This document shows, one piece after another, positions 1 to 6,908 of a stretch of DNA of 8,882 bases. Made by a program: the position numbers and the translations under genes. The stretch comes from a virus (lineage: Duplodnaviria > Heunggongvirae > Uroviricota > Caudoviricetes). The stretch is from the IMG/VR virus record IMGVR_UViG_2534681772_000013. The stretch is one strand, 5' to 3'. The notes under the pieces are model-generated. The model saw nothing but the letters and a program-made list of their open reading frames with translations. It was not told the origin of the DNA and searched no databases. Each line of letters starts with the position of its first letter. Position 1 is the first letter of the stretch.

Positions 1-55
1 GGTATCCGTTCTGCTGAAGTGTCATGGCGTTGATTTTACGGTGACTCTTCGACAG

Positions 56-83
56 TGAAAAGAAAAAAGGCCGCAGAGCGGCC
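56..83 (-). terminator. Putative intrinsic terminator ending the minus-strand cassette (possibly bidirectional)
   Basis: Perfect 6-bp GC stem GGCCGC(69-74)/GCGGCC(78-83) with 3-nt loop; on the minus strand it is followed by a U-run (plus-strand A-run 56-68). It lies about 110 nt downstream of the stop of the 193..747 gene. Confidence 0.5.
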
Positions 84-192
84 ATAAACACAAACAAAAA
101 TCAACAAGTTAGATAATTATCAAAGACTTACAGACACACAAAAACACAGCCAACCACAACAAATAACAGAGATGTGGTCAATTTGTGGATCA

Positions 193-747
193 TCAGCCAA
201 CAAATTTAGCAACAAATACAGCAACCGCCGCCGTGAAAATGGTTGTGCATACTGGCACAATAATGCCACTCCAACGCCACTTCGTATTATCATCAACCTT
301 GTCAAACCGCCGATTCATCTCATCCATAATCTTGTCAAAGCGTTTATCCATCGCTTCGGTAAGCTCACCCTTCAGGCTGTTAATGTCTGATTTGAGCTGC
401 TCTTTCAGGTGAGCTGTATCAGATTTAAGCTCACCTTTCAGATTCGCAATATCGCATTTAAGATCACCTTTCAGATGAGCAATGTCTGCTTTGAGCTCAC
501 CTTTCACCTCACCAACATCGGCTTTGGTTGAGAGGTTTGTAGTGCGTTCAGCAAGCGTCGCAAGGTCGTTTCTTGTTAGCGATAAATCACTTTCGAGTCG
601 CTCAATTCGCCTTTCAAGTTTATCTGACATTCCACCTCCACTACTGCCGCCATCGCCGCCATGATAAAGCACATCACGCTCAGAATGCGACATACTACCT
701 GCTGAATTACCGAAAAGGTTTCTTGCTACATTACCCATTTTCACCAT
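193..747 (-). CDS. Coiled-coil protein with Gly/Ser-rich N-terminal linker, five hendecad repeats (LKGELKxDIAx) and a single C-terminal transmembrane anchor; function unknown
   Basis: 184-aa ORF from the track. Residues 81-135 form five 11-residue repeats; the C-terminus WRWSGIIVPVCTTIFTAAVAVFVAKFVG is a hydrophobic helix. An internal ATG at 736-738 has an AGGA 8 nt upstream and may be the true start. The start overlaps the stop of the upstream zinc-ribbon gene, suggesting translational coupling. Confidence 0.6.
   Translation of the reverse strand: MVKMGNVARNLFGNSAGSMSHSERDVLYHGGDGGSSGGGMSDKLERRIERLESDLSLTRNDLATLAERTTNLSTKADVGEVKGELKADIAHLKGDLKCDIANLKGELKSDTAHLKEQLKSDINSLKGELTEAMDKRFDKIMDEMNRRFDKVDDNTKWRWSGIIVPVCTTIFTAAVAVFVAKFVG
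343..507. repeat. Five tandem copies of an approximately 33-bp unit encoding the hendecad repeats of the coiled-coil protein
   Basis: Recurring motif visible in the DNA (gagctcacctttcag / gatttaagctcacctttcag / atttaagatcacctttcag) at about 33-bp spacing, matching protein repeats VKGELKADIAH-LKGDLKCDIAN-LKGELKSDTAH-LKEQLKSDINS-LKGELTEAMDK. Confidence 0.6.
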
Positions 748-1093
748 CCTGTGCTTTGTCTTTCTCCAACCACTTCAGCACCGCAGACGTACGGTAAAGG
801 CTCAGGTAACCACAATTCAGGCAATGCAGCGTGTAATAAGTTTTGCGCATATCAGGTATGCTCTTAACATCACCCAAAAAAGTATAAGATACATAATGCT
901 TTATGTTCTCTTTAATTAACTCACTCTGCTCCTCCAAGGGTAGATTGTTAAAATTTTCTGGTTTCTTATTTTTATCCCAGCAAAGATCCATACTTTCAGG
1001 CACAGATAATCGAGACGATCCACATGAAGGGCAGACACTGGAAACCCCCTTCTCAGACAAGAAACGGAAGAAGATTTCTGGCGTAATCTCCAT
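731..1093 (-). CDS. Small zinc-ribbon protein (CPSCG ... CLNCGY), AT-rich, function unknown
   Basis: The track gives 731..1126 (131 aa). The internal ATG at 1091-1093 (MEITPEIFF...) is preceded by a strong SD (TAAGGAGCGGCTG-ATG), whereas the ATG at 1126 has only a weak AAGAAG, so 1093 is preferred. Two CxxC pairs suggest a Zn ribbon. The region is markedly AT-rich compared with the integrase. Confidence 0.55.
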   Translation of the reverse strand: MEITPEIFFRFLSEKGVSSVCPSCGSSRLSVPESMDLCWDKNKKPENFNNLPLEEQSELIKENIKHYVSYTFLGDVKSIPDMRKTYYTLHCLNCGYLSLYRTSAVLKWLEKDKAQDGENG

Positions 1094-1232
1094 CAGCCGC
1101 TCCTTATGTTTATTGACACGACTCATCGACTTCTTATTGATTTCATCAGCTTCTTCTTTGCATTTATCTTCTATATATTTCGATAGTAAATAGTCATATA
1201 ACTCTTTTTTTGTAGGTTTTTTATTTCCATAG

Positions 1233-2210
1233 TTACATTCCTCCCAAGGGATTAAACCTCACCGCATCCTGCAGGTAATCCGGCGCAAGATGGGCATAAA
1301 TCATCGTTGTCTGAATCTTTGCGTGCCCCAGAATTTTCTGGAGCGTCAGAATATTGCCGCCGTTCATCATGAAATGACTGGCGAAGGTGTGGCGCAGCGC
1401 ATGAACAGCCTGGCCGTCAGGAACATCAGGTGCGACCGTTTTGATGACATCGCGAACCAATGGATAATCCAGCGTCGGAAACACCAGTTTCCCGCCCCGT
1501 TTTTTGATCTTTTCAAACAGGCTTTCAGAAATAGGAACGGTACGGTTTTTGCTGTTCTTCGTTTTTGAAAAAGTGATTCGACAATGAAGAACACGGCGCT
1601 GCTCCAGTGCCGCTACCTCGCCCCATCGCGCCCCGGTCGACAGAAGGATTTCGACAGCCAGCCGTTCATCGGGATTTTCAGCCAGTGCATCCAGCAACTG
1701 AACACATTCAGACTTACTCAGATATCCCATTTCGCGCTCGTTAACCTTCATTCCTTTAAGGCCTTGAACGGGGTTATCGTTAAGAAAATGGCCGGATGAG
1801 ATGAGTGCGGTAAACATCGCGCTTAACGCCCCAATCTCTCGATTAATGGTGCTGGGCTGTATCCCCTGCTCTATCCTGGACACACGCAGCTCGGTGAGCA
1901 TCGTTGTATTAAGTTTATGCACGCACGGGTCATCCATTGCCTCACTCAAGCGCAGCAATTTAAGGCGCGTGTTATGCCCTGACTTCATTAGCTGACCGTG
2001 GTATTTCCACCACAAGTCAATAAGCACTGACAGCGGACGGCGATCAATGGAGTTTCCTTTCCACTCATTGTTATGCTGTTGCGCCAGCACCCACCGCTCA
2101 TATAAAACTGCATCCGATTTCGTTTTAAATTTTTTACGAATGCGCTTGCCTTTGCGCCCCTCTGGACGCATGTCAAGAAGATAACCTCCCGGAATTGATT
2201 TTATGCTCAT
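1233..2210 (-). CDS. int: Tyrosine site-specific integrase, P2-family
   Basis: C-terminal catalytic signature HALRHTFASHFMMNGGNILTLQKILGHAKIQTTMIYAHLAPDY (R, H-x-x-R, Y) and an N-terminus MSIKSIPGGYLLDMRPEGRKGKRIRKKFKTKSDAV typical of P2-like integrases. The track ORF extends to 2360, but that extension overlaps the 3' end of the repressor gene in another frame; the ATG at 2208-2210 gives a 326-aa protein of the expected size. Confidence 0.9.
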   Translation of the reverse strand: MSIKSIPGGYLLDMRPEGRKGKRIRKKFKTKSDAVLYERWVLAQQHNNEWKGNSIDRRPLSVLIDLWWKYHGQLMKSGHNTRLKLLRLSEAMDDPCVHKLNTTMLTELRVSRIEQGIQPSTINREIGALSAMFTALISSGHFLNDNPVQGLKGMKVNEREMGYLSKSECVQLLDALAENPDERLAVEILLSTGARWGEVAALEQRRVLHCRITFSKTKNSKNRTVPISESLFEKIKKRGGKLVFPTLDYPLVRDVIKTVAPDVPDGQAVHALRHTFASHFMMNGGNILTLQKILGHAKIQTTMIYAHLAPDYLQDAVRFNPLGGM

Positions 2211-2259: not shown

Positions 2260-2570
2260 TTAGCCGGGCTGTGTGCCAGTCTTGCGGGATTTTTGAGAAG
2301 ACGATGTGTTTTCTGGCCCATCAGGGGAGAGAGAGGGACTGATCTGCCCTGCAGCCTCATTTGTTTTTCCCGTCATAAGCCATATAGTGTATTTTTCGAA
2401 ATCCTTAGAATTAATTACGCGATCAACAACGCTTAAACCAACCTCTCTTTTACCGCTCTCATAATTCTTTATAGTTCCGAGATTTATCCCAGTAACATCA
2501 GCAAACTCAGCTTGAGTTAACCCTTCACTTTTCCGTATCTCTTTCAGTTTTTTTCGTACCCACTTGACAT
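2260..2570 (-). pseudogene. C: P2 C-type immunity repressor (XRE-family HTH), interrupted by a 1-nt frameshift in an A7 homopolymer
   Basis: ATG at 2568-2570 reads MSSGYEKN then stops. Shifting by 1 nt at the A7 run (plus T-run 2548-2554) gives MSSGYEKKLKEIRKSEGLTQAEFADVTGINLGTIKNYESGKREVGLSVVDRVINSKDFEKYTIWLMTGKTNEAAGQISPSLSPDGPENTSSSQKSRKTGTQPG (about 103 aa). This has a clear HTH and, from memory, a P2 C-like C-terminal tail. Position and orientation relative to int match P2. Confidence 0.55.
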
Positions 2571-2661
2571 GGTGGTCTCCAGACGACTAAATTAACCCTA
2601 AAAGTCGCCTAGAGACGACTTTTAGCAACAAATAACCACAGACTGAACAGGTTATCACATC
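2571..2661. promoter_or_regulatory. Divergent immunity switch region with operator-like repeats
   Basis: 90-bp intergenic region between divergent genes. Inverted repeat CTAAAAGTCG (2598-2607) / CGACTTTTAG (2616-2625) with an 8-bp spacer; direct repeat AGACGACT at 2581-2588 and 2613-2620. Confidence 0.5.
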
Positions 2662-3619: not shown

Positions 3620-4525
3620 CTATATTTCCAGACATCTGTTATCACTTAACCCATTACAAGCCCGCTGCCGCAGATATTCCCGTGGCGAGCGATAACCCAG
3701 CGCACTATGCGGATGCCATTCGTTATAATGCTCGAACGCCTCTGCAAGGTTCTTTGCTGCCGTTAACCCGTCTGGTTTGGGCATGATACTGATGTAGTCA
3801 CGCTTTATCGTTTTCACGAAGCTCTCTGCTATTCCGTTACTCTCCGGACTCCGCACCGCCGTGTTCTTCGGTTCAAGTCCCAACATCCGGGCGAACTGGC
3901 GTGTTTCATTAGCCCGGTAGCATGAACCATTATCCGTCAGCCACTCCACTGGAGACGACGGAAGATCGTTGCCGAAGCGGCGTTCCACCGCTCCCAGCAT
4001 GACGTCCTGTACTGTTTCACTGTTGAAGCCGCCGGTAGTGACCGCCCAGTGCAGTGCCTCACGATCACAGCAGTCCAGCGCGAACGTGACACGCAGTCTC
4101 TCTCCGTTATCACAGCAGAACTCGAACCCGTCAGAGCACCATCGCTGATTGCTTTCTTTCACGGCCACTCTGCCTGTATGTGCCCGTTTCGATGGCGGTA
4201 CAGCAGGTTTTCGCTCAAGCAACAGCGCATTCTGGCGCATGATCCGGTAAACACGTTTGGCATTGATCGCAGGCATACCATCAAGTTCTGCCTGTCTGCG
4301 AAGCAGCGCCCATACCCGACGATAACCATACGTGGGCAGCTCTCCGATAACATGGTGTATACGGAGAAGCACATCCGTATCATCAGTGTGACGACTGCGG
4401 CGGCCATCCATCCAGTCATCGGTTCGTCTGAGAATGACGTGCAACTGCGCACGCGACACCCGGAGACAACGGCTGACTAAGCTTACTCCCCATCCCCGGG
4501 CAATAAGGGCGCGTGCGCTATCCAC
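3620..4525 (-). CDS. insD: IS2 transposase OrfB (DDE integrase domain)
   Basis: 301-aa translation matches IS2 InsD as recalled ([34 protein letters not shown] ... [14 protein letters not shown]). Confidence 0.93.
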
Positions 4526-4848
4526 TTTTTTGCCCGTCCATATTCAACGGCTTCTTTGAGGAGTTCATTTTCCATCGTTTTCTTGCCGAGCAGGCGCTGG
4601 AGTTCTTTAATCTGCTTCATGGCGGCAGCAAGTTCAGAGGCAGGAACAACCTGTTCTCCGGCGGCGACAGCAGTAAGACTTCCTTCCTGGTATTGCTTAC
4701 GCCAGAGAAATAACTGGCTGGCTGCTACACCATGTTGCCGGGCAACGAGGGAGACCGTCATCCCCGGTTCAAAGCTCTGCTGAACAATTGCGATCTTTTC
4801 CTGTGTGGTACGCCGTCTGCGTTTCTCCGGCCCTAAGACATCAATCAT
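4483..4848 (-). CDS. insC: IS2 transposase OrfA (HTH)
   Basis: Translation from the internal ATG at 4846-4848 is [56 protein letters not shown]... (121 aa). The track's longer 136-aa start lies in the IS2 terminal region and is not the native start. Confidence 0.9.
4506..4512 (-). other. IS2 programmed -1 ribosomal frameshift heptamer A-AAA-AAG (produces the InsCD fusion transposase)
   Basis: Minus-strand GCA-AAA-AAG-TGG in the insC frame, located in the insC/insD overlap, as is typical for the IS3 family. Confidence 0.7.
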
Positions 4849-4938
4849 CTGTTCTCCAATGACTAGTCTAAAAACTAGTATTAAGACTATCACTTATTTA
4901 AGTGATACTGGTTGTCTGGAGATTCAGGGGGGCAGTCT

Positions 4939-6577: not shown

Positions 6578-6708
6578 ACCAGTAAGAAACCAGAACATGC
6601 ACACACAAAAAAAACCGCTTGCCATGCCGCAATCAGTCAGGTTACATTTCCGCTGCACCTCATAAAACGGGTGCCGGGATTTCCACCCCGCTGACAACTA
6701 CAGCGCAC

Positions 6709-6729
6709 AACCGCGCCAGCGGTTTTTTT
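6709..6729 (+). terminator. Putative intrinsic terminator within the non-coding gap
   Basis: AACCGC-GCCA-GCGGTT stem-loop followed by a T7 run (6723-6729). Confidence 0.45.
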
Positions 6730-6908
6730 GTGCGTACTGTATCGCCACGTCTTTTTCGCACACGAATTATGGTGGGGCGTACGGGGCCGACTTCGGTCGG
6801 GCCGGGTTCTGTAGTTGCCGGTTGTGGAAACCCTGTACGTCTCACCACCCCGAGTTTTCCACCTCTGGATGGTGAGTTTTCAAAACTTGCAACTACAGAG
6901 GCCACACC

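What the first reader, a model, noticed from the sequence alone, without database searches (positions are those of the whole stretch)
193..1232. AT-rich two-gene cassette beyond the integrase stop: zinc-ribbon protein plus repeat-bearing, membrane-anchored coiled-coil protein
In P2 the attachment site directly follows int. Here two translationally coupled minus-strand genes with lower GC and their own terminator (56-83) sit in that position. The pairing of a small Zn-ribbon protein with a tail-anchored coiled-coil membrane protein is not a P2 core function and I do not recognise it as a described family. It fits a cargo module (candidate phage-exclusion or abortive-infection pair, or membrane toxin with partner), but whether it is phage cargo or adjacent island DNA cannot be decided from this window.
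Basis: partly seen in the sequence, partly recalled or inferred. Interest (0 to 1): 0.75.

Follow-up and report, generated by a model that had tools for sequence, protein, structure and literature searches.

The report
Prophage zinc-ribbon plus membrane-anchored coiled-coil pair
Two small undescribed genes sit inside a P2-like E. coli prophage between its integrase and its attachment site, recur as a fixed pair in many temperate phages, usually beside the genes that maintain lysogeny, and are a good but untested candidate for a new phage-exclusion system.

Summary
Two minus-strand ORFs (193-738/747 and 731-1126) follow the integrase stop. They have lower GC, an 8-nt stop/start overlap, a 33-bp tandem repeat, a C-terminal TM and two CxxC knuckles.

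Two corrections:
- The "own terminator" (56-83) is the host ihfA terminator. It is also the 25-bp att core (59-83), so the cassette lies inside the prophage.
- The window's Zn-ribbon gene has lost its first 35 codons to a 1-bp deletion in an A-run (1217-1222).

The pair is a conserved module. All 17 contexts of the Zn-ribbon family that I examined (P2-like, lambdoid, Mu-like, tail-operon islands) have a downstream partner with the same architecture: a variable N-tail, a Gly/Asp linker, a coiled coil and a tail-anchor TM. Two partners are cut short, by an IS element or a contig end.

The coiled coil carries the DUF1640 β-layer motif, and alleles differ by exact 11-residue steps. The Zn-ribbon subtype tracks the partner's N-tail, not its stalk.

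The Zn-ribbon fold has no known structural relative. There is no PADLOC hit and no paper on the pair.

Best reading (about 0.4): a lysogen-expressed, membrane-tethered exclusion or abortive-infection pair. Function is untested.

The parts
59..83 (.). 25-bp attachment core (GGCCGCTCTGCGGCCTTTTTTCTTT on the minus strand). It is the host ihfA intrinsic terminator, and here it is the btuC-side copy.
   Evidence: The identical 25 bp sits at both prophage ends in TW10590 (L003 1208-1232 and 38745-38769) and once in the empty K-12 site, 17 bp after the ihfA stop. The match of all 5,426 E. coli genomes ends at position 83. Terminator scan.
84..191 (.). Conserved attP arm on the int side. It ends in the invariant direct repeat GTGGTCAaTTTGTGGATC (174-191), which I infer to be arm-type Int binding sites.
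   Evidence: The segment is conserved across all cargo variants in E. coli and, in part, in Salmonella. Similarity stops exactly at the cargo stop codon. The binding-site role is inferred, not tested.
193..738 (-). Partner gene: a tail-anchored coiled-coil protein of 181 aa (an alternative in-frame ATG lies at 747).
- Disordered N-tail plus Gly/Asp linker: residues 1-36 (631-738).
- β-layer L-S-T-K-A-D: residues 69-74 (517-534).
- Hendecad repeats: residues 79-133.
- TM: residues 156-181 (196-273).
   Evidence: ORF. AF2 gives residues 1-35 as disordered, with helices 37-67, 72-146 and 150-180. Pfam CCDC90-like scores 26.2 bits against a cutoff of 33.5. The β-layer motif is defined in PMC4786415. 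Homologs come as an 11-aa length ladder.
402..525 (-). 33-bp tandem repeat of 3.8 copies that encodes the hendecad coiled-coil repeats. Copy number varies between alleles.
   Evidence: TRF. The spacer between the β-layer and the EAMD motif is 19, 30, 41, 52, 63 or 74 aa in different alleles.
731..1126 (-). Zn-ribbon gene: the intact remaining ORF of 131 aa, which equals the conserved family core. Its stop overlaps the partner's start by 8 nt.
   Evidence: ORF. PHROG 4293 at 9.5e-23. A profile search finds 91 representatives, many of them 110-130 aa and aligning from query position about 40. Invariant C67, C70, C137, C140, G141 and W154. AF2 pLDDT 83.
1127..1230 (-). Ancestral 5' end of the Zn-ribbon gene. 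The ATG is at 1228-1230, with a GGAGG 9 nt upstream inside the int 3' end. The reading frame is broken by a 1-bp deletion in the A-run at 1217-1222.
   Evidence: Alignment with TW10590. All 160-166 aa homologs conserve the N-terminal helix. Sequence read directly.
1233..2210 (-). P2-type tyrosine integrase. Its stop codon is 2 nt before the Zn-ribbon ATG.
   Evidence: Pfam Int_N at 2e-28 and Phage_integrase at 4e-20. RefSeq annotation in TW10590.
2260..2571 (-). HTH immunity repressor (C-type), the first gene of the leftward operon repressor - int - Zn-ribbon - partner.
   Evidence: RefSeq annotation of the 99.9% identical TW10590 locus. The simple scan finds no promoter-like site on the minus strand between 193 and 2360; its only other minus-strand terminator-like hit there is a weak one at 218-234, inside the partner's 3' end.

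Best explanation
SHOWN.
- The window is the int end of a P2-like prophage integrated into the ihfA terminator, between ihfA and btuC.
- Two genes fill the slot between the int stop and the attP arm, and they form a conserved, mobile two-gene module of temperate phages.
- Gene 1 encodes a small, mostly acidic cytoplasmic protein. It has an invariant Cys4 site made of two CxxC knuckles about 67 residues apart, and its fold has no known structural relative.
- Gene 2 overlaps or abuts gene 1. It encodes a tail-anchored inner-membrane protein with four parts: a disordered N-terminal peptide, a flexible Gly/Asp-rich linker, a coiled coil with the DUF1640 β-layer motif and hendecad repeats, and a C-terminal TM.
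- Alleles of gene 2 differ by whole 11-residue units.
- The Zn-ribbon subtype co-varies with the partner's N-tail, not with its stalk or TM.

INFERRED.
- The stalk is a trimer standing on the cytoplasmic face of the inner membrane.
- Its N-terminal peptides, on flexible tethers, dock the Zn-ribbon subunit. The module is therefore one membrane-tethered complex.
- It is transcribed in the lysogen as the tail of the repressor-int operon, and transcription stops at the ihfA terminator regenerated by integration.

MOST LIKELY FUNCTION (inferred, about 0.4).
- A prophage-encoded superinfection-exclusion or abortive-infection device with Rex-like logic.
- The fast-evolving Zn-ribbon and N-tail part recognises a component of an incoming phage.
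- The XhlA-like tail-anchored stalk acts on the membrane, either perturbing it or blocking genome entry.

In this particular window the module is probably impaired by the frameshift in gene 1.
For: Location inside the prophage:
-.

Conserved pairing in 17 of 17 contexts:
- E. coli subtypes 1, 2 and 3.
- Salmonella, Klebsiella and Providencia P2-like elements.
- L031.
- Lambdoid prophage, where the pair overlaps the stop of the cI-like repressor gene opposite cro.
- Mu-like prophage.
- SPN3UB, S107 and ST101-KPC2phi6.1.
- L034, L043, L044/45 and L046/47.

Purifying selection and protein architecture:
- Invariant Cys4, Gly and Trp in the Zn-ribbon family.
- β-layer K and D invariant in the partner.
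- The AF2 helix breaks at the β-layer, and the N-tail is disordered.

Evolution of the pair:
- 11-aa length ladder among alleles.
- Zn-ribbon identity correlates with N-tail identity (rho 0.36) but not with the rest of the partner (rho about 0).
- Subtype 1 vs subtype 2: Zn-ribbon 28% identical, stalk 99%.
- SPN3UB vs S107: Zn-ribbon 98% identical, stalk 22%.

Operon structure:
- 2-nt gap between int and gene 1, with an SD inside int.
- No internal promoter-like site in the simple scan; the only terminator-like hit inside the cassette is a weak one at 218-234.

Support for a defence-type role:
- The int-att slot is variable and is listed as a minor P2 defence hotspot.
- Short partners give near-full-length XhlA matches of 24-26 bits, and XhlA acts with a holin in membrane lysis.
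- The Zn-ribbon proteins are acidic, which fits protein binding rather than nucleic-acid binding.
Against: - There is no functional evidence of any kind. There is no homology to any PADLOC model and no informative fold match.
- Position is circumstantial. Lysogeny-operon placement also fits lysogenic-conversion or regulatory genes.
- The link between the N-tail and the Zn-ribbon subtype is confounded by physical adjacency of the coding DNA.
- The correlation uses non-independent pairs.
- Trimerisation, topology and complex formation were not tested.
- In one Mu-like phage the pair sits directly before holin and endolysin genes, which favours a lysis role.
- A single TM differs from the polytopic RexB.
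- Frameshifted gene 1 copies with an intact gene 2 occur at least twice. Either the module is dispensable or these prophages are decaying; this window also carries an IS insertion.
Confidence: 0.4

Rival explanations
1. Lysis accessory. The tail-anchored protein would be an XhlA-type holin partner or lysis-timing factor, with the Zn-ribbon protein as its regulator. The pair would then act during the phage's own lytic cycle rather than in the lysogen.
For: - Short partners match Pfam XhlA over nearly the whole model at 24-26 bits.
- Weak PHROG holin, hemolysin and spanin hits.
- XhlA is required together with XhlB and XlyA for PBSX lysis.
- In Mu-like L033 the pair lies directly upstream of holin and SLT genes.
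Against: - All XhlA scores are below the Pfam cutoff.
- In the P2-like elements the lysis cassette is about 17 kb away in the late operon, while the pair sits in the leftward repressor-int operon.
- In lambdoid L035 the pair overlaps the repressor gene's stop.
- In three phage types it sits in tail-operon accessory islands.
- 158 sibling prophages replace it with an unrelated gene, so it is not needed for lysis.
Confidence: 0.15
2. Membrane-tethered regulator. The stalk would sequester the Zn-ribbon protein at the membrane and release it on a signal such as envelope stress or infection. Release would then alter phage or host gene expression, as in anti-sigma-type or lysogenic-conversion logic.
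For: - Tethering architecture: an N-tail on a flexible linker, and an N-tail that co-varies with the Zn-ribbon subtype.
- Zinc ribbons are common in nucleic-acid-binding regulators, and there is a weak Zn_ribbon_13 hit at E = 0.001.
- Placement in the lysogeny operon.
Against: - Most Zn-ribbon members are acidic, pI about 5-5.5.
- No HTH or other DNA-binding domain, and no fold similarity to Ogr, Com or TFIIS-type regulators beyond chance.
- No conserved target gene lies nearby across the different contexts.
Confidence: 0.15
3. Addiction or toxin-antitoxin-like stabilisation module. The small membrane protein would be a toxin held in check by the Zn-ribbon protein, stabilising the prophage.
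For: - Two small overlapping genes on a mobile element.
- A single-TM membrane protein of the kind that can depolarise cells.
- A Hok/Gef gene at the other prophage end shows that this phage carries such functions.
Against: - Gene 1 is frameshifted in the window and, independently, in RM12367, while gene 2 stays intact. That should be lethal for a classical antitoxin, unless translational coupling silences gene 2 at the same time.
- No similarity to known TA families.
- A partner of 100-190 aa with a long structured stalk is unlike type I toxins.
Confidence: 0.1

Closest known systems
DUF1640 / CCDC90-like family (PF07798; MCUR1 and CCDC90B and their prokaryotic homologs), trimeric β-layer coiled-coil membrane proteins
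   Same: - C-terminal TM anchor.
- Long coiled coil with the β-layer motif [aliphatic]-A-T-K-[polar]-[DE]; here it is L-S-T-K-A-D, and other subtypes have F-A-T-K-S-D.
- RefSeq labels the protein DUF1640 or CCDC90 family.
- Weak PDB sequence hits to trimeric β-layer coiled coils (7o92, 6h9l).
   Different: - The Pfam score of the window protein (26.2 bits) is below the 33.5-bit cutoff.
- It adds a disordered N-tail, a (G/D)n linker and variable hendecad repeats.
- It is obligately paired with a Zn-ribbon gene. DUF1640 genes of Liberibacter phage SC2 and of APSE-1 are unpaired.
- There is no head domain.
XhlA (PF10779), the membrane-associated lysis protein of B. subtilis prophage PBSX
   Same: - Small phage protein with an N-terminal coiled coil and a C-terminal TM.
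- Short partners of the same module align over nearly the whole XhlA model.
- A membrane-active role is plausible.
   Different: - Scores are below the cutoff.
- XhlA sits in a holin-endolysin cassette and has no Zn-ribbon partner.
- Here the gene is in the repressor-int operon of a Gram-negative phage.
Lambda RexA/RexB and analogous prophage two-gene exclusion pairs next to the repressor (for example mycobacteriophage and Gordonia phage systems)
   Same: - A two-gene module co-oriented with and immediately downstream of the immunity repressor. In L035 it overlaps the cI-like gene's stop, and here it follows C-int.
- One soluble and one membrane component.
- Accessory and variable between related prophages.
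   Different: - No sequence or fold homology.
- RexB is polytopic, whereas this partner has a single tail-anchor TM and a long stalk.
- Function is untested here.
Accessory genes near int in P2-related phages, and small membrane Sie proteins (K139 glo; lactococcal Sie2009; HK97 gp15 moron)
   Same: - Small membrane-associated proteins encoded in lysogeny modules or tail-operon morons of temperate phages.
- The int-att slot is reported as a minor P2 defence hotspot.
   Different: - Those are single proteins with N-terminal anchors or periplasmic location.
- There is no Zn-ribbon partner, no β-layer coiled coil and no homology.
- The comparison rests on my own knowledge of those systems, apart from the hotspot statement.

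Membership tests
DUF1640 / CCDC90-like (PF07798) | Pfam HMM score at or above the gathering threshold (33.5 bits) | tested here: not met
   26.2 bits, E = 8e-6, covering residues 56-177. Close homologs carry a precomputed PF07798 hit. RefSeq names the protein DUF1640 or CCDC90 family.
DUF1640 / CCDC90-like (PF07798) | β-layer motif [aliphatic]-A-T-K-[polar]-[DE] at the start of the C-terminal stalk (Hartmann et al. 2016) | tested here: met
   L-S-T-K-A-D at residues 69-74 (Ser in place of Ala). Subtype 3 and Salmonella have F-A-T-K-S-D. K and D are invariant. The AF2 helix breaks at 68-71.
DUF1640 / CCDC90-like (PF07798) | C-terminal transmembrane anchor | tested here: met
   Hydrophobic residues 156-181 form a helix at the extreme C-terminus. 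The same holds in every intact partner examined.
DUF1640 / CCDC90-like (PF07798) | Homotrimeric coiled coil | not testable with these tools
   Only monomer prediction is available. Weak PDB sequence hits (E about 0.1-0.2) go to three-chain entries 7o92 and 6h9l.
XhlA (PF10779) | Pfam HMM score at or above the gathering threshold (34.7 bits) | tested here: not met
   The window protein is not listed. Short partners score 24.3 and 26.4 bits over profile positions 2-61 of 67.
XhlA (PF10779) | Encoded within a holin-endolysin lysis cassette | tested here: not met
   In the P2-like prophage the holin and endolysin lie about 17 kb away in the late operon. Only Mu-like L033 shows adjacency to a holin.
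RexAB-type exclusion | Sequence homology to RexA or RexB, or to any catalogued defence protein | tested here: not met
   PADLOC gives only coiled-coil noise for the partner and nothing for the Zn-ribbon proteins.
RexAB-type exclusion | Co-transcription with the immunity repressor in the lysogen | tested here: inconclusive
   Gene order and overlaps fit: C-int-pair here, and cI-pair in L035. The simple scan shows no internal promoter-like site and only one weak terminator-like hit (218-234) inside the cassette. No expression data are available.
RexAB-type exclusion | Protection against superinfecting phage | not testable with these tools
   Requires phage challenge experiments.
Zinc ribbon (Cys4, two knuckles) | Two CxxC knuckles conserved and brought together on β-hairpins | tested here: met
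   C67, C70, C137 and C140 are invariant in 44 divergent members. AF2 places them after β-strands, at pLDDT 83. All named Pfam zinc-ribbon families score below their cutoffs.
P2 accessory (defence) hotspots | Location in a variable slot between conserved phage landmarks | tested here: met
   The slot is bounded by the int stop (1233) and the conserved attP arm (up to 191). Its content varies among 303 E. coli prophages at this site. It is not one of the two classic hotspots (A-Q, Z/fun). It is the minor int-att hotspot of 10.64898/2026.02.27.708500.
Type II toxin-antitoxin | Recognisable toxin or antitoxin domain | tested here: not met
   None found in Pfam, NCBIfam or PADLOC.

The most novel reading that the evidence does not exclude
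The pair would be a previously unrecognised, widespread family of prophage immunity devices.
- A trimeric tail-anchored stalk presents, on flexible (G/D)n tethers, short peptides that hold a novel Cys4 sensor protein at a set distance from the inner membrane.
- The sensor and peptide part, and the stalk and anchor part, are exchanged independently between phages.
- Hendecad copy number works as a rapidly adjustable ruler, about 1.6 nm per repeat.
- Engagement by an incoming phage component triggers membrane perturbation or blocks genome entry.
Probability: 0.25. Interest if true: 0.8.

Novelty: new variant of a known kind. Interest (0 to 1): 0.58.

Why it matters
If the pair is an exclusion or abortive-infection system, it would add a new architecture to prophage-encoded immunity: a membrane-tethered Zn sensor on a repeat-length-variable stalk.
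- It is absent from current defence catalogues (PADLOC) yet present in about 40% of the P2-like prophages at one E. coli site, including STEC O157, O145, O103 and O26 strains.
- It also occurs in lambdoid, Mu-like and SPN3UB-type phages.
- It would give bacterial DUF1640/XhlA-like tail-anchored proteins a function, and give a novel Cys4 fold family a first partner.
- The natural subtype swaps and 11-residue length ladder amount to ready-made mutant series, which makes the hypothesis cheap to test.

Independently of function, the analysis defines the attB/attP core (the ihfA terminator) and the exact cargo slot of this prophage lineage. It also corrects RefSeq start sites and one missed gene.

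Tried and rejected
Searches that found nothing useful:
- PADLOC, Pfam, NCBIfam and PHROGs gave no functional assignment. The only solid hits are PHROG 4293 and PHROG 9415, both of unknown function.
- tblastn of the 166-aa Zn-ribbon protein against 50,697 phage records: no match. Distant members did hit isolated phages.
- PDB sequence or profile searches: nothing significant.
- The search for related loci with the diverse alignment failed for lack of a conserved stretch. With the close alignment it returned only near-identical E. coli prophages.
- Literature and supplement searches by family name, accession and architecture: nothing on this pair.

Readings I rejected:
- Adjacent chromosomal island or housekeeping genes. 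The att core lies outside the cassette.
- Chance ORFs. The Cys4 site and the pairing are conserved across phage types.
- A role as int or excision accessory. The pair occurs without a neighbouring int in lambdoid, Mu-like and tail-operon contexts.
- An Ogr, Com or TFIIS-type regulator. No such family was detected (no significant Pfam or fold match) and most members are acidic.
- A periplasmic stalk. There is no signal peptide, few or no residues follow the TM in most intact partners, and the partner is a cytoplasmic Cys4 protein.
Full report
**1. What is in the window**

The window carries two minus-strand ORFs directly downstream of a P2-type integrase (1233-2210; Pfam Int_N 2e-28 and Phage_integrase 4e-20). 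They lie at 193-747 (184 aa) and 731-1126 (131 aa). GC falls from about 0.50 in int to 0.38-0.46 across the two ORFs.

The downstream ORF contains a 33-bp tandem repeat (402-525, 3.8 copies). It encodes 11-residue units: KGELKADIAHL, KGDLKCDIANL, KGELKSDTAHL and KEQLKSDINSL. The protein ends in a hydrophobic helix. The upstream ORF has two CxxC pairs.

The stop of the upstream ORF and the likely start of the downstream ORF overlap as ATGGGTAA, with an AGGA 9 nt upstream.

**2. Where the prophage ends**

All 5,426 complete E. coli genomes match window 1-83 and nothing further. Only 23 carry the whole cassette.

In the empty K-12 site these 83 bp lie between the ihfA stop and the btuC start. In strain TW10590, which is 99.9% identical to the window, a complete 37.5-kb P2-like prophage sits between ihfA and btuC. 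The 25-bp sequence GGCCGCTCTGCGGCCTTTTTTCTTT occurs at both of its ends and once in the empty site.

This 25-bp sequence is the ihfA intrinsic terminator and corresponds to window 59-83. Three things follow:
- The att core lies beyond the cassette, so the cassette is phage cargo.
- The "own terminator" is the host ihfA terminator, regenerated on both sides by integration.
- On the btuC side this terminator ends the leftward phage operon.

The segment 84-191 is conserved among all cargo variants and partly in Salmonella. It ends in an invariant direct repeat, GTGGTCAnTTTGTGGATC, at 174-191, and similarity stops exactly at the cargo stop codon. I read this segment as the attP arm with arm-type Int sites, which is an inference. 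The cargo slot is therefore sharply bounded by the int stop on one side and the attP arm on the other.

**3. The window's copy is damaged**

RefSeq annotates the upstream gene as 166 aa, starting at an ATG 2 nt after the int stop with a GGAGG 9 nt upstream. The window has A6 where TW10590 has A7, at 1217-1222.

All close homologs are 160-166 aa and conserve the N-terminal 35 residues. The window allele is therefore a frameshift. It is unique among the 23 complete-genome copies, so it could also be a homopolymer sequencing error.

The remaining 131-aa ORF equals the conserved core of the wider family. However, its ATG has only a poor SD-like element upstream.

Strain RM12367 has an independent frameshift that removes the second CxxC. 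The window's prophage also carries an IS2-like insertion at about 3620-4893, which is absent from TW10590.

**4. The Zn-ribbon protein**

A word-indexed search found 18 clusters, all in Enterobacterales. A full profile search found 91 representatives at 50% identity, many of them 110-130 aa. Across 44 divergent members, C67, C70, C137, C140, G141 and W154 are invariant.

AF2 gives a confident model (pLDDT 83, pTM 0.65). It has a long N-terminal helix that is specific to this subfamily, a short helix carrying the VTPExF motif, and a β-rich core with the two knuckles followed by a C-terminal helix.

No related structure turned up:
- Foldseek against BFVD finds nothing below 1e-3.
- PDB profile searches are empty.

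Most members are acidic, with pI about 5-5.5. That argues for protein binding rather than nucleic-acid binding.

**5. The partner**

Pfam CCDC90-like (DUF1640) scores 26.2 bits, below the 33.5-bit cutoff. RefSeq nevertheless names the protein DUF1640 or CCDC90 family.

Hartmann et al. 2016 (PMC4786415) describe DUF1640 as membrane proteins that carry the β-layer motif [aliphatic]-A-T-K-[polar]-[DE] at the start of the stalk. The window protein has L-S-T-K-A-D at residues 69-74. Other subtypes have F-A-T-K-S-D, and the K and D are invariant.

The AF2 monomer model shows:
- a disordered N-tail (residues 1-35);
- a helix at 37-67, then a break at 68-71, exactly at the β-layer;
- a helix at 72-146;
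- a C-terminal helix at 150-180.

β-layers are features of trimeric coiled coils (PMC4786415). The weak PDB sequence hits are to three-chain entries 7o92 and 6h9l. Trimerisation itself is inferred.

I infer the topology as N-in and tail-anchored. There is no signal peptide, no residues follow the TM, and the partner protein is a cytoplasmic Cys4 protein.

Short partners from other phages match Pfam XhlA over nearly the whole model, at 24-26 bits, which is below the cutoff.

**6. Repeat-number polymorphism**

Homolog lengths fall on two ladders, depending on the start site that was called: 112, 123, 134, 145 and 156 aa, and 148, 159, 170, 181 and 192 aa. The segment between the β-layer and the EAMD motif is 19, 30, 41, 52, 63 or 74 residues long. 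Alleles therefore differ by whole hendecads.

From standard helix geometry I estimate about 1.6 nm of stalk per unit. The (GGD)n linker also varies in copy number between near-identical partners.

**7. The pair is a conserved, mobile module**

Every Zn-ribbon gene examined is followed, with an overlap or directly abutting, by a gene with the same architecture: an N-tail that often contains a DFP-like motif, a Gly/Asp linker, a coiled coil and a C-terminal TM. The contexts are:

| Context | Placement |
|---|---|
| E. coli subtype 1 | int-att slot |
| E. coli subtype 2, strain 2D (Zn-ribbon gene unannotated in RefSeq) | int-att slot |
| E. coli subtype 3, SE11 | int-att slot |
| Salmonella | same ihfA-btuC site |
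| L031 | same ihfA-btuC site |
| Klebsiella P2-like element (Zn-ribbon related at hhalign 98% probability) | after int |
| Providencia | next to ogr |
| Lambdoid prophage L035 | overlaps the stop of the cI-like repressor gene, opposite cro |
| Mu-like prophage L033 | upstream of holin and SLT |
| Salmonella phages SPN3UB and S107, Klebsiella phage ST101-KPC2phi6.1 | accessory island beside Arc/Ant, upstream of the tape-measure gene |
| Myovirus L044/L045 | baseplate operon |
| L043 | upstream of an integrase |
| L034 | short contig, no informative neighbours |
| L046/L047 | degraded or cut copies |

By contrast, the DUF1640 genes of Liberibacter phage SC2 and of APSE-1 have no Zn-ribbon neighbour.

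**8. Modular exchange**

Across 12 pairs, Zn-ribbon identity correlates with N-tail identity (Spearman 0.36, p = 0.003; the pairs are not independent). It does not correlate with the stalk and TM (rho about 0).

| Comparison | Zn-ribbon identity | N-tail identity | Stalk + TM identity |
|---|---|---|---|
| E. coli subtype 1 vs subtype 2 | 28% | 39% | 99% |
| SPN3UB vs S107 | 98% | 70% | 22% |

The exchange boundary is the Gly-rich linker. I infer that the N-tail is the docking peptide for the Zn-ribbon protein. The caveat is that the two coding segments are physically adjacent, so linkage alone could produce the same pattern.

**9. The slot is variable**

Of the 303 E. coli genomes with this prophage end:
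- 23 carry subtype 1;
- about 12 carry subtype 2;
- 86 carry subtype 3;
- 158 carry an unrelated single 138-aa gene (E2348/69 type), which has no Pfam or PADLOC hit.

[quoted passage not shown] Rousset et al. 2022 describe the two major hotspots elsewhere in the genome.

**10. How it most likely works**

Shown:
- the anatomy of both genes and proteins;
- the obligate pairing;
- the position in the leftward operon repressor - int - pair;
- the terminator at the att core;
- subtype and length diversification.

Inferred: a trimeric stalk on the cytoplasmic face of the inner membrane presents tethered peptides that hold the Zn-ribbon subunit, and the module is expressed in the lysogen.

The functional reading I favour, at about 0.4, is a prophage-encoded exclusion or abortive-infection device with Rex-like logic. 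The reasons are:
- lysogeny-operon or moron placement in several unrelated phage types;
- presence in a variable slot known to hold defence genes;
- rapid diversification of the putative recognition part;
- an XhlA-like membrane-active anchor.

Rivals:
- a lysis accessory (XhlA similarity, and adjacency to a holin in one Mu-like phage), about 0.15;
- a membrane-tethered regulator, about 0.15;
- an addiction module, about 0.1.

None of these is tested by any data available here.

**11. Novelty**

No catalogue (PADLOC 2.0, Pfam, NCBIfam, PHROG function labels) assigns a function. No paper or supplement I searched mentions the pair.

The kind of thing is familiar: a small accessory cassette in a prophage lysogeny module. 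The components and their architecture are not described. I therefore rate it a new variant of a known kind, of moderate to good interest, and directly testable.

Noticed in passing
window 3620-4893: An IS3-family element interrupts the prophage early region. Its ORFs (136 aa and 301 aa) look like IS2 InsC/InsD from my own knowledge. It is absent from the otherwise 99.9% identical TW10590 prophage, so this prophage copy is probably grounded.
   Followed up: partly
window 6655-6729 and 6765-6852 (+): Rfam hits above gathering score to isrK Hfq-binding sRNA (63.6 bits) and C4 antisense RNA (80.5 bits). They lie side by side in the P2-like early region, just upstream of a 76-aa ORF that corresponds to the 'Derepression'-family (PF25738) gene of related loci. 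This looks like a P1/P7-type antisense immunity element in a P2-like phage.
   Followed up: no
window 1217-1222: The homopolymer is A6 here and A7 in TW10590 (alignment); match lengths suggest the same for the other complete-genome copies except RM12367. It frameshifts the Zn-ribbon gene. It could be a real mutation or a homopolymer sequencing error.
   Followed up: yes
L042 (E. coli O145 RM12367-C1) 934-1347: An independent frameshift in the same Zn-ribbon gene removes the second CxxC knuckle, while the partner gene remains intact.
   Followed up: partly
L014 2690-3106 (E. coli 100181; same sequence in E2348/69): Alternative cargo in the same int-attP slot: a single unrelated 138-aa ORF present in 158 complete E. 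coli genomes. It has no Pfam or PADLOC hit.
   Followed up: partly
L013 3224-3637 (E. coli strain 2D): RefSeq leaves the subtype-2 Zn-ribbon gene unannotated (137 aa, TTG start). It also starts the partner at an internal Met in many genomes, which hides the conserved N-tail.
   Followed up: yes
L003 1494-1634: A Hok/Gef family toxin gene sits just inside the other prophage end, between the ihfA-side att core and ogr.
   Followed up: no
L003 26937-29678: The classic P2 A-Q hotspot of the TW10590 prophage holds ParM and a partition/stability family gene, plus a DUF4760 gene and a hypothetical gene, rather than a recognised defence system.
   Followed up: no
L044 vs L045 (5381-5749) and L046 vs L047: The (GGD)n linker of the partner differs by one or more 3-residue units between otherwise near-identical copies. 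This is a second length-variable element besides the hendecads.
   Followed up: partly
window 59-83 and Salmonella loci L007, L031: The same ihfA-terminator attachment site is used by related P2-like prophages in Salmonella. There the hairpin loop differs by two bases (GCAATGC vs GCAGAGC).
   Followed up: partly
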